Assembly (NCBI GenBank): GCA_963811085.1
Contig: CAWEPV010000013.1
Coordinates: forward strand, 987,304 to 1,051,303
Length of the DNA stretch: 64,000 nt
Source of the DNA: an uncultured beta proteobacterium
GTDB taxonomy: Bacteria; Pseudomonadota; Gammaproteobacteria; Burkholderiales; SG8-39
Direction of reading: 5' to 3'
Shown here one piece after another: positions 711 to 64,000 of this stretch; position 1 is the stretch's first letter, and every line of letters begins with the position of its first letter. The notes beneath the pieces are model-generated. The model saw nothing but the letters and a program-made list of their open reading frames with translations. It had not been told where the DNA came from and did not search any database. Position numbers and translations under genes: made by a program.

Positions 711-800
711 TGCCGTCTCTTTAGCGGTATTTGTTAGGCGCCCGCAATCTGAACATCAAATCGGCGCCGATGCGGAATTATAGCCGAGCCGCGGCCTTGC

Positions 801-20047: not shown

Positions 20048-20048
<1 letters not shown>
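19563..20048 (-). CDS. lptE: LPS-assembly lipoprotein LptE
   Basis: Internal start MRTLVLLAALSLASCGF (lipobox LASC). It lies immediately after leuS, as in most proteobacteria. Confidence 0.75.
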
Positions 20049-25654
<5,606 letters not shown>

Positions 25655-49800: not shown

Positions 49801-49889
49801 CGCAATTCGTGCGCGGGGCGCTCGCGCCCGCGCGCAGCCTCGAATTGTGGGACCCGCTCGACGACCCGTCCTCGATAGGGCTACATTAG
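46884..49889 (+). CDS. 7TMR-DISM (DISMED2 + 7TM) - PAS - GGDEF - EAL membrane sensor (c-di-GMP turnover)
   Basis: 1001 aa: N-terminal TM plus extracytoplasmic domain, seven hydrophobic helices, PAS, a GGDEF domain with RVGGDEF, and an EAL domain with ...[15 protein letters not shown]. Confidence 0.85.
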
Positions 49890-49905
49890 CCCGCTTTCGA
49901 GTCGG

Positions 49906-50739
49906 TTGCGCGCGATGAAGAGGACGGTCCTCGAGCTGAGGCAGTCGAAGGGCGGGCGCCTGGTGATGCTTACCGCCTATGATTTCCCCGGCGCCAGGCT
50001 CGCGTCGGAGGCCGGCGTGGACCTTATCCTGGTGGGCGATTCGCTCGGCATGGTGGTGCTGGGCTACGAATCGACCGTGCCGGTGACCATGGAAGACATG
50101 TTGCACCACGCCAAGGCCGCGCGGCGCGGCGCGCCCGACACCTTCCTCGTCGCCGACATGCCGTTCATGTCCTACGCGAGCGGCGAGCAGGCGCTCGCAA
50201 ATGCCGCGCGCCTGATGAAGGAGGCGGGGGCCGATTCGGTCAAGCTCGAGGGCGGCCTGGACGCCGTGCCAGCGGCCGAGGCGTTGGTGCGGGCGGGTGT
50301 TCCGGTGCTGGGACACATCGGCCTGACCCCGCAGACGGCGTCGGCGCTGGGCGGCTACAAACTTCAGGGCCGCGACGAGGCCGGCGCCCGCCGGCTGCTC
50401 GAGGAGGCCTCCGCGCTCGAGCGGGCGGGCTGCTGGGGCGTGGTGCTCGAGATGGTTCCGGCGCCGCTCGCGCGCGCGATCACGCAGTCGATCGGGGTGC
50501 CCACCATCGGCATCGGCGCCGGCCCCGACTGCGACGGCCAGGTGCTGGTGTTCCACGACCTGGTCGGCCTGTTCTCCGGCTTTGCGCCGAAATTCGCCAA
50601 GCGCTACGCGGAAGCGGGCGCGCTGATCCGCGAGGCGATCGCGCGTTACGCAGCCGAAGTGCGCGCCGGCACTTTTCCCGACGCGGCGCACAGCTTCGGC
50701 ATGAGCGACGAGGTGCTGAAGCGGGTCTATGGCGGCTGA
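49906..50739 (+). CDS. panB: 3-Methyl-2-oxobutanoate hydroxymethyltransferase
   Basis: 277 aa; [33 protein letters not shown] signature. Confidence 0.9.
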
Positions 50740-52528
50740 GCGCCGCGCAGGCGAGGCGCTCGCGCTGCTGCGCCGGACCTTCGGCCACACGGAATTCCGC
50801 GGCGCGCAGGAAGACATCGTCGCGCACCTCGCCGCCGGCGGCGACGCGCTGGTGCTGATGCCGACCGGCGGCGGCAAGTCGCTTTGCTACCAGGTGCCCT
50901 CGCTGCTTCGCCCTGGCACCGGGGTCGTGGTTTCGCCGCTCATCGCCCTGATGCAGGACCAGGTGGCGGCGCTCAGGCAGCTGGGGGTGCGCGCGGCGTT
51001 CCTCAACTCGACCCAGGATGCGGCTGCGGCGCGAGAGGTCGAGCGCGCGCTGGTCGCAGGCGAGCTCGACTTGCTGTACGTCGCACCCGAGCGAGCGCTC
51101 ACGCCGCGCTGCCTCGAGCTGCTCGGGCGCAGCCGCATCGCCCTGTTCGCGATCGACGAGGCACACTGCGTGTCGCAGTGGGGGCACGATTTCCGTCCCG
51201 AGTACCTGCAGCTCTCGCTGCTGCACGAGCGCTTCCCGCAAGTCCCGCGCATCGCGCTCACCGCCACTGCCGACCCGCAGACGCGCGCCGAGATCGTCGC
51301 GCGCCTCGCGCTCGGGCAGGCACGGGTTTTCGTGTCGAGCTTCGACCGGCCCAATATTCGCTACGCAATCGTCGACAAGGTCGATCCGCGCGCGCAGCTG
51401 CTGGCGTTCATCCGCGAGGAGCACCCGGGCGAGGCCGGCATCGTGTACTGTCTCTCGCGGCGCAAGGTGGATGAGACCGCGGCCTGGCTCGCGACCCAGG
51501 GCCTTGCCGCGCTGCCCTATCACGCGGGCATGGCGGCCTCCGCGCGCACCGAGCACCAGGCGCGCTTCCAGCGCGAGGACGGAATCATCATGGTGGCGAC
51601 GATCGCCTTCGGCATGGGGATCGACAAGCCCGACGTGCGCTTCGTCGCCCACCTCGATCTGCCCAAGAGCATCGAGGGCTATTACCAGGAGACCGGGCGC
51701 GCCGGCCGCGACGGGCTGCCCGCGGACGCCTGGATGGCCTACGGCCTGGCCGATGTGGTGCAGCAGCGCCGGCTGATCGACCTGTCGGAGGCGAGCGAGG
51801 ACTACAAGCGGGTCTCCGGCGCCAAGCTCGACTCGCTGCTCGGGCTGTGCGAGACCGCCGGCTGCCGCCGGGTGCGCCTCTTGGCCTACTTCGGCGAGAC
51901 GAGCGGGCCCTGCGGCAACTGCGACACTTGCCTCGAACCGCCGCAGACCTGGGACGCGACCGACGCCGCGCGAAAGGCGCTGTCGGCGATCTACCGCACC
52001 GGACAGCGCTTCGGCGCGGTGCATCTGATCGACGTGCTGCGCGGCAAGCGCAACGAGCGCGTCGAACGCTGGGGGCACGAGGCGCTGGGCGTGTTTGGCG
52101 TCGGCGCGGAGCTCGACGAAGCAGCCTGGCGCAGCGTATTCCGGCAGCTCGTCGCCCTCGGCCTGGCGCGGGTCGACCACGACGCCCACGGCGCGCTCAG
52201 GCTGACCGAGGCGAGCCGGGCAGTGCTCAAGGGCGAGCAGGCGGTGCAGATGCGGCGCGTGGTGCCGCGCGCGGTGCGCCGCCCCCGCCGCGCCGCGCCG
52301 AGCGACGTCGCCCCGGCCGACGCGGGGCTGCTGCAGGTGCTCAAGGCCTGGCGGCGCGATGAAGCGCGCAGCCAGGGCGTGCCGGCGTACGTGATCCTGC
52401 ACGACAGCACCCTGGCCGAGATCGCCCGCGCGCGGCCGCGCGACCTCACCGCGCTCGCCGGCCTGGGTGGCATCGGCGCGAAGAAGCTCGAGCGCTACGG
52501 CGACGCGCTGCTGCACTTGATCAACTAG
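50729..52528 (+). CDS. recQ: ATP-dependent DNA helicase RecQ
   Basis: 599 aa; [23 protein letters not shown] Walker A, DEAH box, RQC and HRDC regions. Confidence 0.9.
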
Positions 52529-52532
52529 GGCT

Positions 52533-52560
52533 TGTCAAAGTAGTTTTGACAGCCTAGAAT
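52533..52560 (+). promoter_or_regulatory. Sigma70-type promoter TTGTCA-17-TAGAAT with an embedded perfect palindrome TGTCAAA-gtag-TTTGACA (operator candidate)
   Basis: -35 at 52533-52538 and -10 at 52555-52560. An 18-bp inverted repeat at 52534-52551 spans the spacer. The RBS AGGTAGAAG and the ATG at 52579 follow. Confidence 0.5.
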
Positions 52561-52578
52561 TTGGTTCAGGTAGAAGCC

Positions 52579-52839
52579 ATGAACTGCGCGGAGCAACTCG
52601 TCGTCCTATTCGGTAGCCAGGCCGACGTCGCGCGCGCATTCCAACTCGATCGCGCGGTGGTCAACAACTGGGTCAAGTCGGGCTACGTCCCGGCGCGCTG
52701 GGCGACAGAGGTCGAACGCGTGACCCAGGGCCGCATCACCGCGGTCGAAATCCTTACCGAGGCGAGCGCCAAGAAGCCGGTGCGCGTGAAATCGCGCCCC
52801 GACGACGCATCGTTCGGCATCCTGTCGGAGACTGAGCCC
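52579..52839 (+). CDS. Cro/CI-type HTH module (YdaS/DUF1019-like) reading through, without a stop codon, into the downstream aminotransferase frame
   Basis: MNCAEQLVVLFGSQADVARAFQLDRAVVNNWVKSGYVPARWATEVERVTQGRITAVEIL matches the YdaS-type Cro-like pattern (GSQ..LA..LGV...V..W...G.IP..R...IE..T.G). No in-frame stop was found before the ATG at 52840. Confidence 0.45.
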
Positions 52840-54079
52840 ATGAATACCTACGCACCGTCCAAGCGCATCCATTCGTTCCATCCGCCGCAGCGCACGCTGA
52901 TGGGCCCGGGGCCGACCGAGATTCACCCGCGCGTGCTCACCACCATGAGCCAGCCGGCGATCGGCTACCTCGACCCGATCTTCGTCGAGATGATGGAGGA
53001 GCTGAAGTCGCTGCTGCGCTACGTCTACCAGACCAAGAACCCGCTTACCTTCCCGATCTCGGGCCCGGGCTCGGTCGGGATGGAGTACTGCTTCGTCAAC
53101 CTGGTCGCGCCGGGAGACAAGGTGATCGTGTGCATCAACGGCGTGTTCGGCGGCCGCATGCTCGAGAACGTCATCCGCTGCGGCGGCGTTCCGGTGGTGG
53201 TCGAGGACAGGTGGGGCGAACCGGTCGATCCGCACAAGGTCGAGGATGCGCTGAAGAAGAACAAGGACGCCAAGATCGTCGCCTTCGTGCACGCCGAGAC
53301 CTCGACCGGCTGCCAGTCGGACGCGCAGGAGATCGCCCAGTGTCGCGCACAAGCACGGCGCGCTGGTCATCGTCGACGCGGTCACCTCGCTCGGCGGCAC
53401 GCCGGTGCGGGTCGACGAGTGGGAAATCGACGCGATCTATTCGGCCAGCCAGAAATGCCTGTCGTGCACGCCCGGCCTGTCGCCGGTGTCGTTCTCCGAG
53501 CGCGTGGTCGAACGCGTCAAGGCGCGCAAGGACAAGATCCACAGCTGGTTCATGGACATGAATTTGCTGCTGGGCTACTGGGGCGCCACCACCCGCACCT
53601 ACCACCACACAGCGCCCACCAATTCGCTGTTCGCGCTGCACGAGGCGCTGCTGCTGATCCGCGAGGAGGGGCTCGAGAACAGCTGGGCGCGCCACCACCG
53701 CCACCACGTCGCGCTCAAGTCGGGGCTCGAGGCGATGGGGCTGAAATTCCTGGTCAAAGAGGAATACCAGCTGCCGCAGATGAACGCGGTGCTGTGCCCG
53801 GAGGGCGTGAACGAGGCCGACGTGAGGAAGACCCTGCTGGGCGAATTCGGCATCGAGATCGGCGCCGGGCTCGGGCCGCTCGCGGGCAAGATCTGGCGCT
53901 TCGGCCTGATGGGCTACTCGTGCCGGCCGGACAACGTGATGCTGTGCCTGTCGGCGCTAGGCTCGGTGCTCGAGGACATGGGCCTGCCGGTGCACGTCGG
54001 CGACGCGGAAGCCGCGGCGCACGGCGCCTACGCCAGAATGCACGCGAGCGACGCGCAGCGCAAGAAACGCGCCGCCTGA
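52840..54079 (+). pseudogene. Alanine-glyoxylate / serine-pyruvate aminotransferase (class V, AGXT-like), disrupted by a frameshift near 53340-53350
   Basis: The N-part in frame 1 (MNTYAPSKRIHSFHPPQRTLMGPGPTEIHPRVL...HAETSTGCQSDAQEIAQ) and the C-part in frame 2 (HKHGALVIVDAVTSLGGTPVRVDEWEIDAIYSASQKCL...) each align along AGXT. The junction lies at cagtgtcgcgcacaagcacggc. Confidence 0.8.
54010..54078 (+). repeat. Copy A of a ~70-bp imperfect direct repeat (last 22 codons of the aminotransferase)
   Basis: gccgcggcgcacggcgcctacgccagaatgcacgcgagcgacgcgcagcgcaagaaacgcgccgcc recurs at 60325-60395 with a few substitutions (both encode AAHGAYA.MHASDAQRKKRAA). Confidence 0.6.
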
Positions 54080-54083
54080 GGGC

Positions 54084-54260
54084 CTAAAGCCCCGGGCGCT
54101 GCCAGATGGTGCTCGTCGGGCCGGCCTGGTTGAGCGTGTAGAAGTGCAGCCCGGTGCGCCGCCGCTGAGCAGGCGGTCGCACAGCTCGGTGACGACGTCG
54201 AGGCCGAAGGCGCGCATCGATGCGCTGTCGTCGCGGAAGCTCTCGAGCTTGAAGCGCATC
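54084..54260 (-). pseudogene. metF: 3'-terminal fragment of a methylenetetrahydrofolate reductase (metF) gene, itself frameshifted
   Basis: Minus-strand pieces IPRWMRFKLESFRDDSASMRAFGLDVVTELCDRLLSGG and GLHFYTLNQAGPTSTIWQRPGL* match the MetF C-terminus (IPAWM...; DFHFYTLNRAE...GL*). No upstream MetF body is present. Confidence 0.7.
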
Positions 54261-54366
54261 CAGCGCGGGATCTCGGCGCCGCGGGCGCGCTGGAGTCGTG
54301 CACGTCAATGCAGTACAGTGTCTGCCGTCTCGGGCGACACATCGGGCCGGATAAGCGCCAGCAAGC

Positions 54367-56262
54367 ATGACCGAAGACGGCTATCCTGACGCGCTGCCGC
54401 GCGGGTACCACCTGCACTGGTACCTGCTCGAGCGGGTGCTGGGGCAGGGCGGCTTCGGCATCACCTATCTGGCGCGCGACACCAACCTCGATCAGCGCGT
54501 CGCGATCAAGGAATATCTCCCGATCGACGTCGCCACGCGCCGCAACGACGCGACCGTGCGCGCGCGCACCGAGGCGCACGACGAGCGCTACCGCTGGGGG
54601 CTCGAGAGGTTCATCCGCGAGGCCCGCACGCTGGCGCGCTTCGACCACCCAAATGTCGTGCGCGTGCTCTCGGTGTTCGAGTTCAACAACACCGCCTACA
54701 TGGTGATGCGCTTCGAGGAGGGCAGCAACCTCGCCACCATCCTCGAGCAGCGCGGCACGCTGCCGGAAGGCGAGTTGCTGCGCATCCTGCTGCCGATCCT
54801 CGACGGGCTCGAGCTGGTGCACAACGCGGGGTTCATCCACCGCGACATCAAGCCGGACAACATCCACGTGCGCGCCGACGGTAGCCCGGTACTGCTCGAT
54901 TTTGGCTCCGCGCGCCAGCCCGTGGGCCATTCGCCCAGCTTGACCATCCTGGTCGCCCCCGGCTACGCGCCGTTCGAGCAGTACTACAGCAGCGGCGAGA
55001 GCCAGGGTCCGTGGAGCGACATATACGGGCTTGGGGCGACTTGCTACCGCGCCATCTGCGGCACGCCGCCGATGGACGCGATCGCACGCAGCAAGGGCGT
55101 CCTCGGCAGCGCGCGCGACGTGCTGGCGCCCGCAACCGCGGTCGGCGCGGGACGCTATTCGCCGCGCCTGCTCAAGGCGATCGATCACGCGCTCGAATTT
55201 ACCGAGCGCGATCGCCCGCAGAGCATCGCCGAATGGCGTCGGGAGCTGCTCGGCGAAGGGCAGCAGGCCGCGCTGGCGCCAGCCGCGCCGTCCGCGGCCG
55301 CGGCGCGCAGCGAGCGGCCAGCCCCCGCCTCCGGCGGAGGCTGGCCGGTTTTCCGTACGGTCCTGGCTGCGGCGGTGGCGCTCGTCGTGGTGGCCGTGCT
55401 GCTGCGTTTCTATCCGTTCTCGGGCGGTGGCAAGAGCGGGCCGCCGCCCGAGACCGCGCCCGATCCTGCAGCGCAGCTCAAGGAACGACTCGCTAAGGTC
55501 GAGCAGCAGCTCGCCGAGGAGCGGCAGCGGCAGGCCGAGGCGCTCGCGCAGCAGCAGGCGGAGGAGCGCCAGCGCGTGGAGGCGGAGCGCAAGCGCGCAT
55601 TCGAGGCCGAAGCCGCGCGTAAACGCGAGGCGGAGCAAAAGAAGCTTGCCGAGGAGCGCCAGCGCAAGCTCGCGCAGCAGGCGGAGGCCGAGCGCAAGCG
55701 CCAGGCGGAGCAAAAGAAGCATGCCGAGGAGCGCCAGCGCAAGCTCGCGCAGCAGGCGGAGGCCGAGCGCAAACGGGCTGAGCAGCAGGCTCGCCAGCAG
55801 GCAGTCCAAAGCGCGAAGCCAGCCGCAGCGCCTCCGAGCTCGGCCGCGCTGCTGGAGAAGGCCGACCGCGACTACACCGCCGGCAACTACGCCGAAGCGC
55901 TTGCGGCGCTCAAGCCGCTGGCCGCGCGCGGCAACGCCAACGCCCAGCTCAGGCTCGGCAAGTCCTACGCGGAGGGGCACGGCGTTGCGCACGACGACGC
56001 GCGCGCGGCGATCTGGTATCGGAAGGCCGCGTTGCAGGGCAACCCGGAGGCGCAGTTGCAGCTCGGCGAGCTGTACGCGAGCGGGCGCGGCGTGCCGCAT
56101 AGCGATTTCGAGGCTTATGTGTGGTTGACCGCTGCGGTCCGCGGCGGCAACGCGGCGGCCAAGGCGCTGCAGGGGCGTGTCGCGAAGTTGCTGCAGCCTG
56201 TCGAAGCCGAGCAAGCGGGCAAGCTGGTGACCAATCTGCCGCTCCCCGACGCCGCCAAGTAA
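54367..56262 (+). CDS. Ser/Thr protein kinase with a single TM, a coiled-coil repeat region and C-terminal Sel1/TPR-like repeats
   Basis: Hanks kinase motifs GQGGFGITYLA, VAIKEY, HRDIKPDNI, DFGSA and APGYAPFEQ. TM segment VLAAAVALVVVAVLL. Repeats AEERQRKLAQQAEAERKR. Sel1-like region YRKAALQGNPEAQLQLGELYASGRGV. Confidence 0.85.
   Translation: MTEDGYPDALPRGYHLHWYLLERVLGQGGFGITYLARDTNLDQRVAIKEYLPIDVATRRNDATVRARTEAHDERYRWGLERFIREARTLARFDHPNVVRVLSVFEFNNTAYMVMRFEEGSNLATILEQRGTLPEGELLRILLPILDGLELVHNAGFIHRDIKPDNIHVRADGSPVLLDFGSARQPVGHSPSLTILVAPGYAPFEQYYSSGESQGPWSDIYGLGATCYRAICGTPPMDAIARSKGVLGSARDVLAPATAVGAGRYSPRLLKAIDHALEFTERDRPQSIAEWRRELLGEGQQAALAPAAPSAAAARSERPAPASGGGWPVFRTVLAAAVALVVVAVLLRFYPFSGGGKSGPPPETAPDPAAQLKERLAKVEQQLAEERQRQAEALAQQQAEERQRVEAERKRAFEAEAARKREAEQKKLAEERQRKLAQQAEAERKRQAEQKKHAEERQRKLAQQAEAERKRAEQQARQQAVQSAKPAAAPPSSAALLEKADRDYTAGNYAEALAALKPLAARGNANAQLRLGKSYAEGHGVAHDDARAAIWYRKAALQGNPEAQLQLGELYASGRGVPHSDFEAYVWLTAAVRGGNAAAKALQGRVAKLLQPVEAEQAGKLVTNLPLPDAAK
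55631..55780 (+). repeat. Two tandem 75-bp coding repeats (~96% identical) inside the kinase gene
   Basis: gcggagcaaaagaagc(t/a)tgccgaggagcgccagcgcaagctcgcgcagcaggcggaggccgagcgcaa... occurs twice back to back, giving AEQKK(L/H)AEERQRKLAQQAEAERKR twice. Confidence 0.8.
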
Positions 56263-56300
56263 CGGTAGTATTCCGCCCAAGCGGATCGAGGAGGCAAGGC

Positions 56301-56930
56301 ATGGCGAGCGCGATGCCCGGGTCGTGCGTCGTGTACCGATGCGCGCAGCTGTGCGCGATGATGCTCGTGGCGCTCGCTTCGGGCTGCGTGAGCGAGCAGC
56401 AGAAGATCAGCGCAACACGGGATGTGAACGCCGTGTTCCGCACGGAGTACGAGCGTGTCCTGGCCGAGGACGGAACGCACATCTACCACGTACCGCGCGA
56501 CGAGGCATTCCAGGCCTTGCGCGTCGCTCTGGGCGGGCTCGGCATGCGGCTCGCCGAGCAATCGCCCGATCTCGGGTATTTGAGCGTGTATGCTTCCGCA
56601 CCCGATCCGCTCACGCGCGACGAGTGGCTGCGGGCGGCACAGGCGGACCTGCCGAAGTTTCGCGGCATACTCGAGCAGCACCTGGGCCTTGCGGCATGGT
56701 TCGTATCGTTCGAGCCGCAGGGCCTCGACGTCGTCATCAACGCGACGACGATCCAGGTGCGCGGCGGAACGGCCGTCTCGCTCACCATGCGCATGCGCGA
56801 AGTCGCGCCGCCGAAGTCGGGTTATCCGCGCCGCGAGTATGCCCCGCCGACGGCCGTGCGCATGGGGCTGCGCAAGATCTGGGGCGCGCTGGAGCGAGAG
56901 CTTCCAGCCGCATCGGGCCGGCGCTCCTGA
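56301..56930 (+). CDS. Lipoprotein of unknown function
   Basis: ATG at 56301 with a GGAGG RBS; lipobox LASGC; about 190 aa of mature protein with no recognisable domain. Confidence 0.6.
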   Translation: MASAMPGSCVVYRCAQLCAMMLVALASGCVSEQQKISATRDVNAVFRTEYERVLAEDGTHIYHVPRDEAFQALRVALGGLGMRLAEQSPDLGYLSVYASAPDPLTRDEWLRAAQADLPKFRGILEQHLGLAAWFVSFEPQGLDVVINATTIQVRGGTAVSLTMRMREVAPPKSGYPRREYAPPTAVRMGLRKIWGALERELPAASGRRS

Positions 56931-56942
56931 TCCAGCCGGTGC

Positions 56943-59900
56943 TCAGCTTTGCGCGGGCGCCCCGAGGCTCGCGTACACCGCCTGCGTCTCGGGCGAAGGC
57001 ATGATCTTCAGCCGCGTCGACAGCACAGTGCGCAGCCGCTCATAGGTGGCGCGCGCCTCGGACGGGTCCGCGCCGCGCTGGTAGCACTGCATGAGGCTTC
57101 GATATGGCGCCTCGAACAACGCATCCGCCTCGATGATGCGCAAGTAGCAGTCGACGGCTGCCTCGCGCTGCCCTGACTCCTCGTGGCGCTTGGCAACCCG
57201 GCCGAGGCAGCGCAGCAGGCGCGAGCGGATCTGCTCGCGGCAGGCGATATAGCTCGGCTGCTCGGACTCGTCAGGCAGAAACGGCCCGCGGTAGAGCGCG
57301 AACGTTTCGTCGGCCAGCGCCTGCAGGGCCGGCAGGCCCGCCTCGGCGGCCGGTGCGCGCAGCGCCTCGTCGAGCGCCGCCAGCACGCACTCGAGCGCCC
57401 AGGTATCGACCCAGATGAGCGCCGGGTTGAGGCTCAGGCGCGCGTCGCGCAGCACGAGCGCCTCGTCGTCGCCGAGCAGCCGGCGCAGCCGGTGCAGGGT
57501 GGCGGTGAGCGACTTGTGGGCGTAGTCCGCCTCGACGTGCGGCCACAAGGCGTCGGCCAGCTGATCGGCGCGCACATTCTGCCCACCCAGGGCAACGAGC
57601 ACCTTCATCAGCTCCATGGGCCGGCCAGGGGCCTTTCCCGAGAACTCGACGGACACGGTCTGGCGCAGGAGCTGAAACCCCCCGAGCAGGTGCACGTGAA
57701 ATGGCCAGGGCCAATCACGCAGGCGCAGTGGGGCAGGCTGCGGCAGCAGCCGGCGCGAGCGCACCAACGCGCGCGCATACTCGGTCTCGATGCCGTGGCG
57801 CAGGGCCAGCGCGCAAACGTCGGCGACGGCCTGCGAGCGCCACCAGGGGGCGTGCCGGAAGCCGTGCTCGCGTCCAAGCGCGAAGGCGCTCGCGACCGAC
57901 CCGAGCGCGGCGCGCTCGTCGTTCATCGCGGCAGCCGCCTCGGCCGCCGCGAGCTGCACGATGAAGCGCAGCAGGACGCTGCGCATCCGGTCCGCGAGCG
58001 CCTGCGCGCTTCTCAGCTGTGCTTCGCAGCCGCGCTGGTCGCCCGTACGGGCGAGCATGTCGGCAAGCGCCGCGCGCCCCAGGCATTCTAGCCAGGGGAT
58101 CCCCGCTTCGACGGCCAGCTGCAACGCGCTCTTCGCGTCGAGGCTTGCGCTCGCCACATCGCCTTCGAGCGCCGCGAGCCAGCCGCGCAGGTAATGCACC
58201 AGCGCGCGGTCGGCGCGGCGCAGGCGCGCGCCGCCGCCCTCCAGCGCGCGCAGCTCGTCCCGCGCCCCGTCCCGGTCGCCGGAGCCGAGCGACGCCGCCA
58301 TCGAAATGAGGCGCAACCAGTCGTCGTAGACATGCACGCCCTCGCGCTCGGCCGCCAGGAGCGCGCTGCTCGCGACCTCGCGCGCGCGCGAGTGCGCGCC
58401 GGTAAGTAAGTAGTGCAGCGCCGCGGCGAGAGCGTTGGCGGTCGCATCGAGCGCAGGCAGGCCGGGAACCGGCGCGACCAGCGTGTCGGCCGCCGCCTCG
58501 GCGGCGACGAGATTGCCCTGCATCAGCGCCACCATGGCCCGCGCGACGGCCAGCTCGGCCCCTTCGAGCCAGTCGCCGAGCTCGGCGTTGCCGGGATCGC
58601 GCAGCAGCAGCGCGGCGATCAGTAGCGCGCGCGCCTCCGCGTCGCGGCCCTCGCTTCCGCCCTCGCGCAGCAGGCCCGCGAGCACGACGGTCCAGTGATC
58701 GAGCTGCGCGAGATCGTCGAACTCCAGGATCGTCGCCTTGATCAGGCCGCAACAGCTGCGCATCATCCCGCGACGGTCGGTGGCATCGCGAAACCTCCCG
58801 AATGCTTGCTCGAGGTAGCGCCGCGCCGCCCTGGGGCTCGCGTGCAGCCGGCAGGCGCCGGAGGCGTAGAGCAGCTCCGCATCGGCGTGCAACAGCGCCG
58901 GCGGCAGCAGCTCCAGCCATCCGCCGAGTGTCTCGCTGCGCCCTTGATCGAGCATGAGCTGCGCCTCGGCGGCGGCGATACGGGCGACCTGCGCCCAGTC
59001 GCGGCACTCTACGAGCAGCGACACCGCGTCCTCGGTCTGCCCGGCTTCGCGCAGCAGCGCCGCCGCGCGCTGCAGCTGCTCGGTCCCGAGCACTTCGGGC
59101 TGCTCAAGCGCGGCCCTGCTGCGCAGGAACTCGCGCAGCAGCGGATGCAGCTGGTAGATGCGCCCCTCTTCCGACAGCACCTCGCTCACGAAGTAGTCGT
59201 TGCGCGCCAGGTTGAGCAGCAGCCGTTCCGCCTTCGGCTCCTCGGCGAGCGTCTGCGCCACTTCCGCGGTCATGCGCGGCAGGCATGCGACGTGCGCCAG
59301 AAAGCGCTTCGTGTCGGGCTCGAAGCGGTCGTAGATCTCGCCGGCGAGGTAATCGAAGATCACCTGGGGAGCCGCGTCCTCGGGCAGCTCCGCGACCTGG
59401 CCGGAGAGCTTGGTGTGCTCGAGCATCAGCACCAAGCCGGCCGCCCAACCCTGCGTGCGCTCGTGCAGCTGCGAGGCAGCCTCCGCCGAGAGCTTCTGTC
59501 CGCGCAGCTGGGCGATCGCGCCCAGCTCATCCGGCGCGATACGCAACTCTTCCCAGCCGACGCACGCCATCTCGCCCGCCACGCGCATGCGCGCCAGGGC
59601 CCCCGGTGGCTCGCTACGGCTGGTCACAATCACCGTGCATTGCTTGGGTATCTGCGCGAATGCGGCTTCAAGCACCGCGTGCAGCGTGCTCTCGGGCGGC
59701 ACCTCGTGCAGGCTGTCGAGCACCAGCGCAAAGGGCGGCTTGGCGCGCGCGAACAGCTGGCGGAAGAACAGGCGCGCGAACGATGCGACATCCGAGCGGT
59801 ACTGCGGCGTGAACGCGGGAAACTCGCGACTCTGGCCGCCCTCGAGCCTGCGCGCGGCGTGCCCGAGATAGTGGAAGAACGTCGCCACGTCCGCGTCGTC

Positions 59901-60251
59901 GGGATCGACCTGGTACCACAGGCAGCGGTAACCGCGCGCTTCGACGTAGCTCGCGGCAAGGGTGGTCTTGCCCGCGCCTGGCGGCCCGGAAATCCAGGCC
60001 ACCGTGCGCCCCGCAGCCCCGTCGAGGCGCGCGAACAGGCGCTGCCTCGGAACGATGGAGCCGATCGCCGGGCGCGTGGTCTTGGCGAAAGCGACGGTGC
60101 GCTGCCCAGCCTTAACCACGCGGCCCCCTCCCTTGACGTTCCATCGCCTCACGCTGCACGGGCCCGCGGCCCGCCCGGCATCGATCATACCCACCAGACG
60201 GCTCAGCTGCCCAGATGCACCAGATACTTCGCGCCGTCGGAGAACGTGCAC
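56943..60251 (-). CDS. Large transcriptional regulator: MalT-like AAA/STAND ATPase + TPR-like helical repeats + C-terminal SARP module (OmpR-type winged helix followed by BTAD)
   Basis: N-terminus FAKTTRPAIGSIVPRQRLFARLD...ISGPPGAGKTTLAASYV (MalT-like Walker A); a long Ala/Leu-rich helical repeat region; C-terminus LLGGFQLLRQTVSVEF...RADQLADALWP (trans_reg_C) followed by the BTAD-like FALYRGPFLPDESEQPSYIACREQIRSRLLRCL. The true start may lie inside the listed ORF. Confidence 0.8.
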   Translation of the reverse strand: MHVLRRREVSGASGQLSRLVGMIDAGRAAGPCSVRRWNVKGGGRVVKAGQRTVAFAKTTRPAIGSIVPRQRLFARLDGAAGRTVAWISGPPGAGKTTLAASYVEARGYRCLWYQVDPDDADVATFFHYLGHAARRLEGGQSREFPAFTPQYRSDVASFARLFFRQLFARAKPPFALVLDSLHEVPPESTLHAVLEAAFAQIPKQCTVIVTSRSEPPGALARMRVAGEMACVGWEELRIAPDELGAIAQLRGQKLSAEAASQLHERTQGWAAGLVLMLEHTKLSGQVAELPEDAAPQVIFDYLAGEIYDRFEPDTKRFLAHVACLPRMTAEVAQTLAEEPKAERLLLNLARNDYFVSEVLSEEGRIYQLHPLLREFLRSRAALEQPEVLGTEQLQRAAALLREAGQTEDAVSLLVECRDWAQVARIAAAEAQLMLDQGRSETLGGWLELLPPALLHADAELLYASGACRLHASPRAARRYLEQAFGRFRDATDRRGMMRSCCGLIKATILEFDDLAQLDHWTVVLAGLLREGGSEGRDAEARALLIAALLLRDPGNAELGDWLEGAELAVARAMVALMQGNLVAAEAAADTLVAPVPGLPALDATANALAAALHYLLTGAHSRAREVASSALLAAEREGVHVYDDWLRLISMAASLGSGDRDGARDELRALEGGGARLRRADRALVHYLRGWLAALEGDVASASLDAKSALQLAVEAGIPWLECLGRAALADMLARTGDQRGCEAQLRSAQALADRMRSVLLRFIVQLAAAEAAAAMNDERAALGSVASAFALGREHGFRHAPWWRSQAVADVCALALRHGIETEYARALVRSRRLLPQPAPLRLRDWPWPFHVHLLGGFQLLRQTVSVEFSGKAPGRPMELMKVLVALGGQNVRADQLADALWPHVEADYAHKSLTATLHRLRRLLGDDEALVLRDARLSLNPALIWVDTWALECVLAALDEALRAPAAEAGLPALQALADETFALYRGPFLPDESEQPSYIACREQIRSRLLRCLGRVAKRHEESGQREAAVDCYLRIIEADALFEAPYRSLMQCYQRGADPSEARATYERLRTVLSTRLKIMPSPETQAVYASLGAPAQS

Positions 60252-60324
60252 ATGCCGGCACCCTGGCGCGCGTTGGCCATCCGATAGCCGCAGCTCAGGA
60301 ACGCGCCGCTGCGGCTGTGGGCGC

Positions 60325-60395
60325 TCGCCACGCCGCGGCGCACGGCGCCTACGCCAGCATGCACGCCAGCGACGCGCAGCGGAAGAAGCGCGCGG
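60325..60395 (+). repeat. Copy B of the ~70-bp direct repeat (orphan duplicate of the aminotransferase 3' end)
   Basis: gccgcggcgcacggcgcctacgccagcatgcacgccagcgacgcgcagcggaagaagcgcgcggcc. No aminotransferase body is upstream of it. Confidence 0.6.
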
Positions 60396-60401
60396 CCTAT
60401 G

Positions 60402-61233
60402 CTAGTTCTTCGCCGAAGCTGCAGCCGTAAAGCGCCCGGCGAGATCGGGCTGGGAGCCGTAGCGCTCGAGGGTAGGCTGCATCGTCTGCGCGAGCGCATC
60501 GAGCCGTTCGGCGGGCGCAGGGTGGGTCTTGAACATCAGCGCGAGGCTTGAGTCCGCGGGATTGATCGCCTCGAGCGTCTGCAGTACCGCGGGCAGGCCG
60601 TAGGCGTCGTAGCCGGCGCGGGCCGCGATCACCACGCCGAGGCGGTCGGCCTCGAGCTCGTCGGACTTGTCGAGCCCGCGCGCGTAAAGCTCGGTGCCGG
60701 CGGAGATCAGCTTGTTGCGCGCCTCGCTGTTGCCGCGGTTGGCGAGCGCGAGCGAGAGGGCGTCCGCGGCGAGGCCGGTCCTCGCGTTCTTCTGCATCGC
60801 CGCCAGGTGATGCTTGCGCAGCACGTGCGAGATCTCGTGCGCCAGCACGCCGGCCAGCTCGGCTTCGCTGCGCAGGCGCGCGTACAGGCCGCGGGTGATG
60901 AACACGTTGCCGCCCGGTGTGGCGAAAGCGTTCACGGTGTCGGTATCGAGCACGCCGAAATGCCACGGCAGGCCGGGGCGCTCGGTATGCAGCGCGAGCC
61001 AGCGCCCGACGCTGTTGACGTAGCGCTGCAGGCGCTCGTCCGGTACCAGCGGCGCCGAGCAGACGCGCCGCCACGGCGCGCCCGATCGAGATCTCCTGCG
61101 GCTCGTCGACCTCGCTGCTCGCCTGCTGGATCTTCTTGACCGTGCCGACCAGCCTGTTGAGGTCGAGTGAGAACTGCGCCTGGGCGGGAGGCGCGGCTGC
61201 GGCGAGTAGCAAGGCGCAGAGGGCGGCGCGCAC
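60402..61233 (-). pseudogene. M48-family zinc metalloprotease (YcaL/BepA-like), disrupted by a frameshift near 61035-61045
   Basis: The N-part frame gives signal peptide MRAALCALLLAAAAPPAQA...EPQEISIGRAVAARLLGAA. A second frame continues PLVPDERLQRYVNSVGRWLALHTERPGLPWHFGVLDTDTVNAFATPGG...HEISHVL (HExxH). The junction lies in a ggcgccgc run. Confidence 0.7.
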
Positions 61234-61289
61234 GTTCAGGGCCCCGTGGGGTAATCGACGGACTGCGATTCGAGCTTGCCCCTGCGCGC

Positions 61290-61537
61290 AAACGCCTTCG
61301 CCGCATCTTCGCCAGGCTCTTTTCGTCGATGTCGATCATGACGATGTCCGGGTCCGGCGCGAGCCGCACGGCGTGCAGCCGCACGAACAAGTCGACCAGG
61401 CGGTTCTCGAGCGGGGCGGAGAGATGCAGCCAGAATATTTCCGCCGCTGCGAGCGCGCCGAGGAATAGGGGTCGGTTCAACGTGATCTGCGCGAACGGTA
61501 GTGCTGCAGAGTGCCCGCGCGGCGGCGCGGGCGTCAA
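61290..61537 (-). pseudogene. Truncated CHASE2-domain gene fragment (N-terminal ~80 codons only)
   Basis: MTPAPPRGHSAALPFAQITLNRPLFLGALAAAEIFWLHLSAPLENRLVDLFVRLHAVRLAPDPDIVMIDIDEKSLAKM matches a CHASE2 N-terminus (TM helix, then ...D..F.LR....P..IV.IDIDE.SL). The sequence then turns to low-complexity text and runs into the M48 gene. Confidence 0.5.
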
Positions 61538-64000
61538 GCCGGAAGCTGGTAGCCCTTGTCGCCGAACAGCCGCAGGCAGGCGTCCACGGCGTCCGCATCG
61601 AAGAGCTGGCCGCGTCCGTTGGCGATCTCTTCCAGCGCGGCGTCCAGGCCGCGCGCCGGACGGTAAGGACGGTGCGAGCCCATCGACTCGACGACGTCGG
61701 CAACCGCAAGGATGCGCGCCTCGAGGATGATCTGCTCGCCCTTGAGGCCCTGCGGGTAGCCGCTGCCGTCGAGGCGCTCGTGGTGCTGCCGCGCCACTTC
61801 GGCGATCGGCCAGGGGAAGCGGATGTCCTTCAGGATGTCGTATCCGGACTGCGCGTGCATCTTGACGATCTCGTACTCCGCCGGCTGAAGGCGCGTCGGC
61901 TTGGACAGGATTTCGGCCGGCACCGAGATCTTGCCGATGTCGTGCAGGCTGCCGGCGATGTCCAGTCCGCGGCAGCGCTCGGCGTCCAGCCCCATCTCGT
62001 CGGCGATCGCCGCCGCGAGCTTGCCGACCCGGAGTTCGTGGCCCGCCGTGTAGGGGTCGCGGATCTCGACCATCGTCGACACCGCCCTGATGGTGCCGGT
62101 CATGGTTTCCTCGAGCTGCGCCATGTACTCTCGCACGCGATTGCCCGAAGTCTTGTACTCGGAGATGTCTTCTACCTGGACCACCAGGTGGCGCAGCTTG
62201 CCCAGCGAATCGCAGACGCGCGCGGCGTTGGCCCTGATCCAGACCGTCCGTCCGTCCTTGCGCACGATCTGTCCCTCGGTGCGCACGGCCTCGCGCTCAC
62301 CACTGAGCATCTGCGCGAACAGCTTCAGCAGCGGCTCGACACTTTTCGGCGCAAGGAACTTCTGGAACGGCTCGCCGACCAGCTCGGCTGCAGGGTATCC
62401 CGTGATGGCGCAGATCGAGCGATTGACTTTAACGGTGCGCCCGTCGGTCCCAATGAGGACGATGCCGATGCTGGCGCTTTCGAACGCCTGCTTGAACTGC
62501 TCTTCGCTGTCGAGCAGTTTGCGCTCGGCCTCGAGCCGGCGGTCGTTTTCGGCGAAGCGCCCCATGGCAAAGCCCACGTCGCGCGCCGTCTGCTCGAACA
62601 GCTGCACGATTTCGGCGTCGAAGAAGCCGGGAATCGCCGAGTTGTAGCTCAGGGTGCCGACAATCTCGTCCTCGACCCGCAAAGGAAAGGCCGCCGACGT
62701 CGCGACGCGCAATTCCCTCGCGGCCGCGCGCCATGGTTCGAGGGCGGGATCATGCATGAAGTCTTCAATGATGACTGTGCGGCCCTCGCGGATCGCTGTC
62801 CCGATCGGGCCACGGCCGCGCGGGTCATTGGCGTCGGTGCTGATGTCGGCGTTCGCCAGATAGGTCTCGAGCCCGCGTGACATGGCGACCGGCCGGACTT
62901 TGCCGCTCCCCTTCTCGACCATGCTGATCCAGGCGCCAACCAGACCGCCTTCGTCGACCGCGACGCGGCAGGTCTCACGCATCACTTCGTCCAGCGAGTT
63001 CGAACGCACCAGTGCTTCGTTGGTTTGCCACAGGGTCTGATACAGGCGATTGAGCGATTGAATGCGCGCTTCCGTGCTCTTGCGCGCCGAGATATCGTGA
63101 GCGACAGCGTGAAAAAAGCCGCGCCCGTCGACTTCGAAGTAGCGCGCGCTGATCTCGACCGGAAAGGTCGAGCCGTCCGCCCGCTGGTGGACAGACTCGA
63201 ACATCAGCTCGCCGCGCTTCTCGATTTCGCGCTTGTCACGTGCCAGTGATTCGAGCGAGTCGGGAGCCCGCAGCTCCGCAATGCGCTTGCCGAGCAGCGC
63301 TGAGTGCGGGTACCCGTATATTGATACGGCCCGCTCGTTCGCTTCGAGGATCCGCCCGTCGGCGTCGTACAGAAAGGTCGGGTCGCGCGCGTAGGGCGCC
63401 AGCTGTCGGAAGTGTTCCTCGAGCGCGGCGCGCTCGAGCGCAGCCTTTTGCTGGAACAGCACGTCCGCGAACTGCCGACGGCGCTCGAGCCAGAACACCG
63501 CCAGGGCGGCGAGCGTGATCAGCAGCACCGCCCACGCGGCGATGATCTGTGTGCTCCGCGTCAGCGGCGCGAGCGCCTCGGCGCGATCGATCTTCACCAG
63601 AATACGCCAGTCGGTCCCGCTGATCGGTGCGTAGGCATAAAGCACCGGCACGCCGCGGCGATCGACGCCTTCGGCTACGCCGTGCCGGCCCTTGAGTGCC
63701 AACATGGCGGGAAGGTCGCGCCTATGCAGCGCGACCGGTGGCGACGCGCCCTCCGTGCCGCGCCTGAGCGGGCTGAGGTGCACCACGGTGTTGCCCTGGG
63801 TGCGGATGAGCACGCTTTCGCTGGAGCTGAAGCTGGACAGCGGATCCTCCAGCAGCGAGTACAGCACGTGGCGCGGGTCCCAGTACAAGACGATGACGTC
63901 CTCGCTAACGCGCGCCGCTGCTTCGAGCTCGCGGCTCGGCACCACGAATGCCAGGCGCAGGCCTGTGCCCGCGCCGAAGCGCTGCGGCCCGAGCATCACC
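61534..64000 (-). CDS. PAS/GAF-containing HD-GYP phosphodiesterase (c-di-GMP), N-terminus possibly beyond the window end
   Basis: C-terminal HD-GYP domain (GHELRVGKLAAAIADEMG...LHDIGKISVPAEIL...HHERLDGSGYPQGL); upstream GAF and PAS regions and a TM segment (IIAAWAVLLITLAALAVFWL). Confidence 0.8.
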   Translation of the reverse strand, partial: VMLGPQRFGAGTGLRLAFVVPSRELEAAARVSEDVIVLYWDPRHVLYSLLEDPLSSFSSSESVLIRTQGNTVVHLSPLRRGTEGASPPVALHRRDLPAMLALKGRHGVAEGVDRRGVPVLYAYAPISGTDWRILVKIDRAEALAPLTRSTQIIAAWAVLLITLAALAVFWLERRRQFADVLFQQKAALERAALEEHFRQLAPYARDPTFLYDADGRILEANERAVSIYGYPHSALLGKRIAELRAPDSLESLARDKREIEKRGELMFESVHQRADGSTFPVEISARYFEVDGRGFFHAVAHDISARKSTEARIQSLNRLYQTLWQTNEALVRSNSLDEVMRETCRVAVDEGGLVGAWISMVEKGSGKVRPVAMSRGLETYLANADISTDANDPRGRGPIGTAIREGRTVIIEDFMHDPALEPWRAAARELRVATSAAFPLRVEDEIVGTLSYNSAIPGFFDAEIVQLFEQTARDVGFAMGRFAENDRRLEAERKLLDSEEQFKQAFESASIGIVLIGTDGRTVKVNRSICAITGYPAAELVGEPFQKFLAPKSVEPLLKLFAQMLSGEREAVRTEGQIVRKDGRTVWIRANAARVCDSLGKLRHLVVQVEDISEYKTSGNRVREYMAQLEETMTGTIRAVSTMVEIRDPYTAGHELRVGKLAAAIADEMGLDAERCRGLDIAGSLHDIGKISVPAEILSKPTRLQPAEYEIVKMHAQSGYDILKDIRFPWPIAEVARQHHERLDGSGYPQGLKGEQIILEARILAVADVVESMGSHRPYRPARGLDAALEEIANGRGQLFDADAVDACLRLFGDKGYQLPA

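What the first reader, a model, noticed from the sequence alone, without database searches (positions are those of the whole stretch)
52528..61600. About 9 kb of decaying, island-like DNA: frameshifted genes, gene fragments and a duplicated gene end around a kinase/regulator pair
Within one 9-kb stretch: (i) an AGXT-type aminotransferase preceded by an in-frame Cro-like HTH and broken by a frameshift; (ii) a 70-bp copy of that gene's 3' end repeated 6.3 kb downstream; (iii) an orphan metF 3' fragment; (iv) a Ser/Thr kinase, a lipoprotein and a MalT/SARP-hybrid regulator; (v) a frameshifted M48 protease; (vi) an 80-codon CHASE2 stub. The rest of the window is intact, tightly packed housekeeping. 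This density of lesions and duplicated ends is the signature of an integrated element or rearrangement hotspot undergoing erosion.
Basis: partly seen in the sequence, partly recalled or inferred. Interest (0 to 1): 0.7.

Follow-up and report, generated by a model that had tools for sequence, protein, structure and literature searches.

The report
Recombination hotspot between two conserved genes
The gene fragments and broken genes are real, but they are recombination scars at a chromosomal site where related soil bacteria keep swapping signalling-gene cassettes, not a decaying foreign island, and the helix-turn-helix joined to the aminotransferase is a conserved, probably self-regulating fusion.

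Summary
Comparison with about 90 related loci changes what they mean.

- **Site.** The stretch lies between two conserved convergent genes, the HTH-AGXT fusion gene and metF, in uncultured Burkholderiales. Relatives carry at least seven different gene contents there.
- **Mosaic.** The window combines three cassettes that occur separately or in another order elsewhere:
  - X: Ser/Thr kinase, lipoprotein, STAND/BTAD regulator (intact).
  - Y: M48 protease, SH3 protein, CHASE2 cyclase (decayed).
  - S: PAS-GAF-HD-GYP sensor (intact).
- **Relics.** The metF fragment, the 67-bp AGXT end and a third relic of a small lipoprotein gene sit at junctions with short GC-rich microhomologies. This fits illegitimate joins formed next to homologous recombination in the flanking genes.
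- **Real lesions.** A 5-nt deletion in M48 and a 2.04-kb deletion that leaves the CHASE2 stub recur in five other assemblies.
- **Unconfirmed lesion.** The AGXT frameshift is one extra A, absent from two near-identical contigs. It is either an error or a very recent mutation.
- **No island signature.** There is no integrase, no tRNA and no compositional break.
- **The fusion.** The "in-frame Cro-like HTH" is conserved in all 82 related loci, under purifying selection, with a conserved palindrome over its own promoter.

Interest is modest.

The parts
52532..52560 (+). Palindrome TTGTCAAAGTAGTTTTGACA (52532-51) that overlaps a sigma-70-like promoter: -35 TTGTCA, 17-nt spacer, -10 TAGAAT at 52555-60. 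Putative operator of the HTH-AGXT gene.
   Evidence: Among 84 distinct upstream regions, 63 match TTGTCAA-N7-TTGACA perfectly and 21 have one mismatch. Flanking positions carry no information. The motif occurs once in the window against 0.13 expected. Binding by the HTH is inferred.
52579..54079 (+). HTH(Cro/YdaS)-linker-AGXT class V aminotransferase fusion gene. It encodes 499 aa when intact and is broken in the window by an extra A at 53339.
   Evidence: Pfam and solved-structure matches. The gene is an intact 499-aa product in L001 and L002, which differ from the window only by this indel, plus 5 SNPs in L002. It is full length in all 82 related loci. Omega is 0-0.3 for the HTH plus linker.
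54011..54077 (+). Repeat copy a: the true 3' end of the AGXT gene.
54085..54287 (-). Relic b': about 200 nt of the metF 3' end. Its stop codon lies 5 nt from the AGXT stop, and the relic is internally frameshifted.
   Evidence: It is 91% identical to the intact metF (L001 15250-15446). Window 52528-54287 is collinear with L087, where AGXT and metF are directly adjacent. The junction to cassette X falls at about 54273-54287 with microhomology GC(G/A)GGCG.
54281..60243 (.). Cassette X:
- Ser/Thr kinase with Sel1 repeats, 54367-56262 (+).
- Lipoprotein, 56301-56930 (+).
- STAND/MalT-WHD/wHTH/BTAD regulator, 56943-60119 (-).
   Evidence: Domains. It is 94-94.5% identical to L088 and L089. Its dS of 0.08-0.14 compares with 0.24-0.43 in the flanking genes, and omega is 0.16-0.33.
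60203..60331 (-). Relic g': the last ~42 codons of a small lipoprotein gene that is intact (154-156 aa) in L006 and L004.
   Evidence: It is joined to a' through an imperfect microhomology of about 16 nt, GCCGCGGCGCACGGCG.
60332..60398 (+). Relic a': a 67-nt copy of the AGXT 3' end that abuts the M48 stop codon.
   Evidence: The AGXT|M48 adjacency is the arrangement found in L088.
60402..61233 (-). M48 metalloprotease pseudogene. A 5-nt deletion, one unit of a GCGCC tandem, lies between 61055 and 61056. The HEISH motif is still intact.
   Evidence: Aligned to the intact 279-aa M48 of L088. The sequence is identical in L001, in three Logan contigs and in L093.
61236..61537 (-). Out-of-frame remnant made of the last ~24 codons of the SH3 gene (61236-61310) and the first ~78 codons of the CHASE2 cyclase gene (61303-61537). 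A 2039-bp deletion left it.
   Evidence: The intact genes are L088 5813-6304 and 6301-8136.
61534..64000 (-). Cassette S: PAS-GAF-PAS-HD-GYP sensor phosphodiesterase. It runs off the window end and is an intact 972-aa protein in L001.
   Evidence: A 44-nt relic of its 3' end survives in L088.

Best explanation
The stretch is a chromosomal variable site of the "minimal mobile element" kind. Two conserved convergent genes, HTH-AGXT and metF, act as homology anchors. Between them, related uncultured Burkholderiales hold different cassettes of signalling genes.

The window's arrangement is AGXT - metF' - X - g' - AGXT' - Y(decayed) - S - metF. It is best read as a mosaic produced by two one-sided recombination events on an ancestor AGXT-X-g-metF:
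1. An exchange anchored in AGXT, with a donor in which AGXT and metF are adjacent. It trapped 200 nt of the donor's metF end at the border of homology.
2. An exchange anchored in metF, with a donor of type AGXT|M48-SH3-CHASE2-S-metF. It trapped S, Y and the last 67 nt of the donor's AGXT, and it joined illegitimately inside gene g.

Afterwards module Y decayed through a 2-kb deletion and then a 5-nt deletion in M48. X and S stayed functional. The extra A in AGXT is a private feature of this assembly and is most likely a consensus error or a very recent mutation.

Shown: the relics, the junction sequences, the alternative arrangements in relatives, the reality of the Y lesions, and the lower synonymous divergence of X.

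Inferred: the order and mechanism of the events (homology-facilitated illegitimate recombination) and the direction of transfer.
For: Alternative contents of the same interval in relatives:
- AGXT|metF adjacent in 6 loci.
- AGXT-YdjM-M48-SH3-CHASE2-metF or a close variant in 14 loci.
- AGXT-X-(g)-metF in L005, L006, L008 and L089.
- AGXT-Y-X-metF in L088.
- AGXT-S-like-metF in L003.
- AGXT-YdjM-g-metF in L004.

Collinearity of each junction with a different type:
- Window 52528-54287 with L087.
- Window 60332-61313 and 61303-61577 with L088.
- Cassette X with L088 and L089.

Microhomology at the novel joints.

Relics of the same kind in relatives:
- A 44-nt S relic in L088.
- A 68-nt M48 relic in L003.
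- Truncated g in L088 and L089.

Divergence of X against its flanks:
- X has dS 0.08-0.14, against recQ 0.41-0.43, metF 0.35-0.41, M48 0.38 and AGXT 0.24-0.31.
- X is 96-98% identical, against 70-90% in recQ and apbA.

Independent confirmation of the structure:
- The same structure, indel-free, in L001, in three Logan contigs and in a 0.7%-diverged strain, L093.

No mobility genes, tRNA or compositional break.

Published concepts:
- Minimal mobile element definition (PMC3082526).
- Homology-facilitated illegitimate recombination and orphan relics (PMC3240628; PMC5361080).
Against: - The event order is a reconstruction. Other paths, such as circle excision and re-integration or duplication plus deletions, also need two illegitimate joints and cannot be excluded.
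- The left end of X abuts three different neighbours at nearly the same bases. That could hint at a site-specific process, which I could not find.
- Natural competence of this lineage is unknown.
- The relics are too short (67 and ~200 nt) to identify donors.
- The lower dS of X rests on two comparison genomes.
- Three short-read contigs all stop at 60337 for an unknown reason.
Confidence: 0.7

Rival explanations
1. An integrated foreign genomic island or mobile element, flanked by the 67-bp direct repeats as attL/attR, is eroding.
For: - 67-nt direct repeats of a gene 3' end lie 6.3 kb apart, as integrative elements leave.
- Cassette X has a patchy distribution and low dS against relatives.
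Against: - No integrase, transposase or relaxase lies in or beside the interval, and there is no tRNA.
- Composition and GC3 are the same as the surroundings.
- The repeats are only 93% identical, and one sits next to a relic of another gene.
- The repeats bracket only the intact cassette X together with the metF and g relics. The decayed Y genes lie outside them and belong to the ancestral neighbourhood.
Confidence: 0.07
2. The lesions are sequencing or assembly artefacts of a long-read metagenome-assembled genome: frameshift errors plus a chimeric join of co-existing strains.
For: - The AGXT frameshift is a single extra base seen only on the 1.5-Mb contig.
- The exact intact protein is on three other contigs.
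- The frameshifted products are not on record elsewhere.
Against: - The M48 5-nt deletion, the CHASE2 deletion and relic a' are base-for-base identical in L001 (ENA) and three Logan short-read contigs.
- The JGI contig L093, 0.7% diverged, carries these same lesions and relic, plus relic g', with no gaps.
- The metF relic and its junction to X are identical in L001 and L002.
- No other frame breaks were detected in the 64-kb window.
Confidence: 0.1
3. The order arose by purely intragenomic rearrangement, with no exchange between lineages. For example, a tandem duplication of the AGXT-metF interval was followed by differential deletions, or a circle was excised and re-integrated through the a or b homology.
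For: - Duplicated gene ends and swapped cassette order (X-Y here, Y-X in L088) are what duplication-deletion or Campbell-type events produce.
- A single crossover of a circle (a-b'-X-g') into AGXT-a'-Y-S-metF gives exactly the observed order.
Against: - A simple tandem duplication predicts b' to the right of X-g, not to its left.
- The circle itself needs two illegitimate joints.
- The repeat copies are 7-9% diverged.
- The dS of X is three to five times lower than that of recQ, metF and M48, and about half that of AGXT. This indicates exchange between lineages.
Confidence: 0.13

Closest known systems
Minimal mobile elements (MMEs) of Neisseria (Saunders & Snyder 2002; Snyder et al. 2007; definition quoted in PMC3082526)
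   Same: - Two conserved flanking genes with different whole-gene cassettes between them in different genomes.
- No mobility genes of their own.
- Exchange attributed to homologous recombination in the flanks.
   Different: - Here the comparison is between species-level MAGs of uncultured Burkholderiales, not strains of one naturally competent species.
- The cassettes are multi-gene signalling modules.
- Several events were one-sided and left gene-end relics, whereas classical MMEs are clean replacements.
Homology-facilitated illegitimate recombination, or [quoted passage not shown] (de Vries & Wackernagel 2002; Prudhomme et al. 2002; Meier & Wackernagel 2003; cited via PMC5361080 and PMC3240628)
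   Same: One end is anchored in a conserved gene and the other is joined at a short GC-rich microhomology. Extra donor DNA is retained beside the anchor, and recipient sequence is duplicated or deleted at the joint.
   Different: The events were not observed experimentally here. The mechanism is inferred from junction anatomy only, and the route of DNA uptake is unknown.
Orphan gene-end arrays at Vibrio cholerae T6SS effector-immunity loci and at Rhs loci (PMC5361080)
   Same: Successive displacement events at one locus leave orphaned fragments of the previous occupants as a historical record.
   Different: Those relics are often retained for function, as immunity genes. Here the relics (metF', AGXT', g', SH3') are non-coding debris.
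Transcription factor-enzyme fusions: MocR/GabR/PdxR (GntR wHTH plus fold-type I aminotransferase domain), PutA and BirA. This comparison is from my own knowledge and applies to the HTH-AGXT gene.
   Same: - An N-terminal DNA-binding domain is fused to a dimeric metabolic enzyme fold.
- A palindromic site overlaps the gene's own promoter, suggesting metabolite-linked autoregulation.
   Different: - The DNA-binding domain is an all-alpha Cro/YdaS type, not GntR.
- The enzyme part is a class V AGXT-type aminotransferase with its PLP lysine motif (SASQK) kept.
- One literature search found no description of this architecture.
- DNA binding is untested.
AfsK/AfsR of Streptomyces: a Ser/Thr kinase that phosphorylates a SARP-NB-ARC-TPR regulator. 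This comparison is from my own knowledge and applies to cassette X.
   Same: A Hanks-type kinase is encoded next to a large P-loop NTPase regulator that carries an OmpR-type wHTH and a BTAD domain.
   Different: - The domain order is reversed: the NTPase and MalT-like WHD are N-terminal and the wHTH-BTAD is C-terminal.
- The kinase carries Sel1 repeats.
- A lipoprotein gene lies between the two.
- The AfsK model scores 37 bits against a cut-off of 1300.

Membership tests
Minimal mobile element-type variable site | Two conserved flanking genes | tested here: met
   HTH-AGXT is 83-98% identical in protein across 82 loci. metF follows it in about 30 of them.
Minimal mobile element-type variable site | Different whole-gene cassettes between the flanks in different genomes | tested here: met
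   At least seven arrangements were found: none, YdjM+Y, X(+g), Y+X, S-like, YdjM+g, and the window's mosaic.
Minimal mobile element-type variable site | Incorporation by homologous recombination in the flanks, without own mobility genes | tested here: inconclusive
   No mobility genes are present. X has lower dS than the flanks, and the junctions sit at the borders of flank homology. The recombination itself was not observed.
Integrative genomic island | Integrase, recombinase or transposase in or beside the element | tested here: not met
   Pfam annotation of every gene in 52.5-64 kb and in the related loci shows none. The only Phage_integrase hit is a gene next to dapF and DUF484, 9 kb downstream in L087. 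I take it to be the housekeeping xerC.
Integrative genomic island | Insertion at a tRNA or tmRNA gene, or at a defined att site with near-identical direct repeats | tested here: not met
   No tRNA lies nearer than 30.6 kb. The repeats are 93% identical gene-end relics.
Integrative genomic island | Composition that deviates from the host | tested here: not met
   GC is 0.66-0.735 against 0.62-0.74 in the window as a whole. Tetranucleotide distance z is at most 2.6, in a single slice containing coiled-coil repeats. GC3 is 0.84-0.93 throughout.
Homology-facilitated illegitimate recombination product | Illegitimate joint at a short microhomology, next to a stretch homologous to the recipient | tested here: met
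   The b'|X joint uses GC(G/A)GGCG. The g'|a' joint uses about 16 nt, GCCGCGGCGCACGGCG (imperfect). Both lie beside AGXT or metF homology.
Homology-facilitated illegitimate recombination product | Demonstrated uptake of donor DNA with a one-sided anchor | not testable with these tools
   This needs transformation experiments or time-resolved population data.
Unitary pseudogene (M48 protease) | A frame-disrupting lesion relative to intact orthologues, reproducible in independent data | tested here: met
   A 5-nt deletion relative to L088. The orthologue is intact and in one frame in at least 13 loci. The lesion is identical in five other assemblies.
Pseudogene (HTH-AGXT) | A lesion reproducible in independent data | tested here: not met
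   The extra A at 53339 is absent from L001 and L002. The exact intact protein is on three other contigs. The frameshifted products are not on record.
AGXT-type class V aminotransferase | Aminotran_5 fold with the PLP-binding lysine | tested here: met
   Pfam PF00266. The AGXT 1vjo matches at E 3e-104 over residues 98-464. The SASQK motif is invariant in 27 sequences. No NCBIfam equivalog cut-off is reached; BhcA scores 213 against 650, so the substrate is unknown.
MocR/GabR family regulators | GntR-type winged HTH fused to a fold-type I, class I aminotransferase-like domain | tested here: not met
   The N-terminal domain matches Cro/YdaS families and the Cro protein 3bd1, not GntR. The enzyme part is class V.
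AfsR/SARP regulators | N-terminal OmpR-type wHTH plus BTAD, followed by an NB-ARC ATPase and TPR repeats | tested here: not met
   The order is reversed. AAA_16/NPHP3_N covers residues 71-212, Trans_reg_C 878-930 and BTAD 962-1095 of the 1102-aa ORF. The MalT model matches residues 20-416.

The most novel reading that the evidence does not exclude
The HTH-AGXT gene encodes an undescribed kind of enzyme-repressor. A homodimeric PLP-dependent class V aminotransferase provides the dimer through which its fused Cro/YdaS-type HTH binds the conserved palindrome TTGTCAA-N7-TTGACA over the gene's own -35 box and spacer. Transcription of the gene would then be tied to the enzyme's substrate state.

The architecture forms a single cluster at 50% identity, confined to one lineage of uncultured Burkholderiales. 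At least 82 loci were verified and 574 candidate genomes were found.
Probability: 0.5. Interest if true: 0.55.

Novelty: new member of a known kind. Interest (0 to 1): 0.33.

Why it matters
- **For annotation.** A cluster of gene fragments and frameshifts in a MAG need not mean a foreign island or a bad assembly. Comparing a few dozen related contigs separated one unconfirmed single-base lesion from real, population-wide lesions.
- **For genome evolution.** The locus records cassette shuffling between two conserved anchor genes in an uncultured soil lineage. The relics preserve the order of events, which makes it usable for studying one-sided recombination outside model organisms.
- **A testable by-product.** The region yields a conserved Cro-type HTH-aminotransferase fusion with a phylogenetically footprinted operator.

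Tried and rejected
- **Frameshifted AGXT products.** Two exact-product look-ups returned nothing on record, so the frameshift could not be confirmed in any other sample.
- **Structure of the fusion.** The AlphaFold2 model, built from a shallow 27-sequence alignment, had mean pLDDT 58. It showed five N-terminal helices at residues 3-64 and a disordered linker. That is too poor for a fold search, so I did not use it.
- **Defence-system reading of cassette X.** PADLOC gave only generic kinase-domain hits (PD-T4-6, mad6) and nothing for the STAND protein or the lipoprotein. Rejected.
- **RNA elements.** Rfam and tRNA scans found nothing in the region.
- **Terminal repeats around X.** Only chance-level repeats were found.
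- **Simple tandem duplication of the interval.** Rejected because it puts the metF relic on the wrong side of X.
- **Campbell integration of a circle.** It reproduces the observed order but needs a circle that already carries two illegitimate joints. I kept it as a rival explanation.
- **Other frameshifts in the window.** A GC3 frame plot plus Pfam checks on suspicious pairs showed that the candidates are ordinary adjacent genes.
- **Literature on a Cro/YdaS-aminotransferase fusion.** One search found nothing relevant.
- **Nearest unfused AGXT.** This protein, 58% identical, has no adjacent Cro-like gene, so the origin of the fusion remains unknown.

Full report
**Observation**

The window has 62-74% G+C throughout.

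- **HTH-AGXT gene.** The ORF from ATG 52579 carries an N-terminal Cro/YdaS-type HTH (Pfam PF15943 and PF14549). The closest solved structure is the Cro protein 3bd1, E 1e-4. The rest is an AGXT-type class V aminotransferase, closest to 1vjo at E 3e-104. The coding frame changes near 53340.
- **Repeated AGXT end.** A 67-nt copy of the gene's 3' end (54011-54077) recurs at 60332-60398 with 93% identity.
- **metF fragment.** 54085-54287 on the minus strand is a metF 3' fragment.
- **Kinase, lipoprotein and regulator.** All three are intact:
  - Ser/Thr kinase with Sel1 repeats, 54367-56262.
  - Lipoprotein, 56301-56930.
  - 1058-aa P-loop/MalT-WHD/wHTH/BTAD regulator, 56943-60119, minus strand.
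- **M48 protease.** It is split between two frames (60402-61233, minus strand).
- **CHASE2 stub.** A CHASE2 N-terminus of about 78 codons lies at 61303-61537, minus strand.

**Which lesions are real**

Two metagenome contigs carry the identical kinase.
- L001 (ENA) matches window 49330-64000 with no mismatch and a single gap.
- L002 (JGI) shows five SNPs and the same gap.

The gap is an extra A at window 53339, in the context GCCC[A]GTG. Without it the gene is an intact 499-aa product.

- The exact intact protein is recorded on three contigs, the longest 57.7 kb.
- The exact kinase and the 183-aa M48 fragment are recorded on a 1,507,952-bp contig, presumably the window's source.
- The frameshifted products are on record nowhere.

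The AGXT frameshift is therefore private to this assembly. It is either a consensus error or a very recent mutation, and only reads can decide. A GC3 frame plot with Pfam checks found no other frame breaks in the 64 kb.

The M48 break and the CHASE2 stub are a different matter. Both are base-for-base identical in L001 and in three independent short-read assemblies (L084-L086). They are also present without any gap in a JGI contig from a strain 0.7% diverged (L093). These lesions are real and fixed in the population.

**What the pieces are**

Eighty loci from species-representative genomes and close relatives found through exact-protein look-ups were mapped by tblastn and blastn.

The widespread arrangement is AGXT, a YdjM-like hydrolase, then on the other strand M48, an SH3-domain protein and a CHASE2 adenylate/guanylate cyclase, then metF and apbA. 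The M48-SH3-CHASE2 module is complete in 14 loci.

Other genomes show:
- AGXT and metF directly adjacent: L007, L013, L017, L055, L057 and L087, where they are 4 nt apart.
- AGXT-kinase-lipoprotein-regulator-(g)-metF: L005, L006, L008 and L089.
- AGXT|M48-SH3-CHASE2|kinase-lipoprotein-regulator|metF: L088.
- AGXT-sensor-like-metF: L003.
- AGXT-YdjM-g-metF: L004.

The interval between the two convergent conserved genes is thus a variable site. The window contains three of its cassettes:
- X: kinase, lipoprotein and regulator.
- Y: M48, SH3 and CHASE2 cyclase.
- S: the PAS-GAF-PAS-HD-GYP sensor.

**Anatomy of the scars**

*The metF fragment.* Window 52528-54287 is one collinear alignment with L087 through the AGXT stop and into metF. 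The fragment is therefore the remnant of an AGXT|metF junction. It is 91% identical to the intact metF that follows S just beyond the window end (L001 15243-16076), and it has its own internal frame break.

*Left end of X.* The relic joins X at about 54273-54287 through the microhomology GC(G/A)GGCG.

*Right end of X.* X is followed by the last ~42 codons of a small lipoprotein gene g, which is intact in L006 and L004. This relic joins the 67-nt AGXT relic through an imperfect microhomology of about 16 nt, GCCGCGGCGCACGGCG.

*The AGXT relic.* It abuts the M48 stop exactly as the real AGXT end does in L088.

*Lesions in Y, relative to L088.*
- A 2039-bp deletion (L088 5890-7929) fuses, out of frame, the first ~78 CHASE2 codons to the last ~24 SH3 codons.
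- M48 has lost one unit of a GCGCC tandem between 61055 and 61056. Its HEISH motif and the rest of the protein are otherwise conserved, at 90% amino-acid identity after repair.

*Similar debris in relatives.*
- L088 keeps 44 nt of the 3' end of S between CHASE2 and X.
- L003 keeps 68 nt of the M48 3' end.
- L088 and L089 keep shorter stumps of g.
- The L088 kinase gene is called in two pieces.

**Island or hotspot**

- No gene in the interval or in the related loci encodes an integrase, transposase or relaxase.
- There is no tRNA or other Rfam family nearby.
- GC content, tetranucleotide profile and GC3 do not differ from the rest of the window. The largest z, 2.6, falls on the kinase's coiled-coil repeats.
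- The decaying module Y is the ancestral neighbour, not an import.
- Cassette X is under purifying selection, with omega 0.16-0.33.
- X's synonymous divergence from L088 and L089 is 0.08-0.14. That is three to five times lower than for recQ (0.41-0.43), metF (0.35-0.41) or M48 (0.38), and about half that of AGXT (0.24-0.31). Sliding identity agrees: 96-98% in X against 70-90% in recQ and apbA.
- X has therefore been exchanged among these lineages more recently than their flanks diverged.

**Mechanism (inferred)**

The simplest account starts from an AGXT-X-g-metF ancestor.
1. A recombination anchored in AGXT, with a donor in which AGXT and metF are adjacent, ended illegitimately just past the border of homology. 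It trapped 200 nt of donor metF.
2. A recombination anchored in metF, with a donor of type AGXT|Y-S-metF, ended illegitimately inside g. It trapped S, Y and the last 67 nt of donor AGXT.

This is the anatomy described for homology-facilitated illegitimate recombination (PMC3240628; PMC5361080 and the references it cites). [quoted passage not shown]

A Campbell-type integration of a circle reproduces the observed order but needs two illegitimate joints. A simple tandem duplication followed by deletions puts the metF relic on the wrong side of X. Neither can be excluded, and I rank both lower. The order of events and the donors are not shown.

**The in-frame HTH**

This is not a product of decay.
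- The 499-aa architecture is full length in at least 120 protein clusters and in all 82 related loci examined.
- At 50% clustering it collapses to one representative. The nearest unfused AGXT is 58% identical and has no Cro-like neighbour.
- The HTH-plus-linker part has omega 0-0.3 in 13 comparisons.
- Upstream, otherwise unconserved sequence contains TTGTCAA-N7-TTGACA. It is perfect in 63 of 84 distinct sequences and has one mismatch in the other 21. A TAnAnT box follows, 17 nt after the first half-site.
- In the window the motif lies at 52532-52560 and occurs nowhere else.

I infer that the fusion protein represses its own promoter, with dimerisation supplied by the aminotransferase fold. 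AGXT enzymes are homodimers; that point is from my own knowledge. Binding and any ligand response are untested. The AlphaFold model was too poor to help.

**Comparison and verdict**

- "Rearrangement hotspot with erosion" is supported for the site and for module Y.
- "Integrated element" is not supported.
- The AGXT frameshift is unconfirmed, and the M48 frameshift is real.

The phenomenon belongs to known kinds: a variable cassette site between conserved genes, with scars of one-sided recombination. This makes it a new member of a known kind, of modest interest. The most novel element is the conserved Cro-type HTH-aminotransferase fusion with its footprinted operator, which one literature search did not find described.

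Noticed in passing
window 52532-52560: The palindrome TTGTCAA-N7-TTGACA overlaps a -35/-10 promoter directly upstream of the HTH-AGXT gene. It is conserved in all 84 distinct related upstream regions while the flanks are not. It is probably the operator of the fused HTH.
   Followed up: yes
window 52528/52529 (between the recQ stop and the operator); L087 9219-9950: Close relatives L087-L090 carry a 249-aa DUF3750 gene between recQ and HTH-AGXT. It is cleanly absent from the window, L001, L002 and L060. The upstream side of AGXT is therefore also polymorphic.
   Followed up: partly
window 60337; L084, L085, L086: Three independent short-read contigs all end at exactly window position 60337, 5 nt inside the AGXT relic. 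The two repeat copies share no 31-mer, so the repeat itself should not break the assembly. A co-existing haplotype is possible but was not found.
   Followed up: partly
L088 8314-10199: In the relative L088 the orthologous Ser/Thr kinase is called as two ORFs of 172 and 456 aa, so it is frameshifted or interrupted there, while its M48-SH3-CHASE2 module is intact. This is the reverse of the window's state.
   Followed up: no
L088 about 8175-8219; L003 3849-3916: Relatives carry relics of their own: 44 nt of the HD-GYP sensor's 3' end in L088 and 68 nt of the M48 3' end in L003. Repeated cassette turnover at this site therefore leaves debris in several lineages.
   Followed up: yes
window 55497-55790: The kinase gene holds imperfect 45-75-nt tandem repeats that encode an (A/E/Q/R/K)-rich coiled-coil between the membrane segment and the Sel1 repeats. 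This is the least conserved part of cassette X, at 75-80% identity to L088 and L089.
   Followed up: partly
window 700-777 (-): A SAM-II (alphaproteobacterial SAM) riboswitch match scores 38.9 bits against a gathering score of 36. It lies upstream of the minus-strand ORF that ends near position 3.
   Followed up: no
window 20048-25501 (-): A 1817-aa stop-free frame overlaps several shorter stretches with a coding signal. It is probably an artefact of the high G+C content, not one gene.
   Followed up: no
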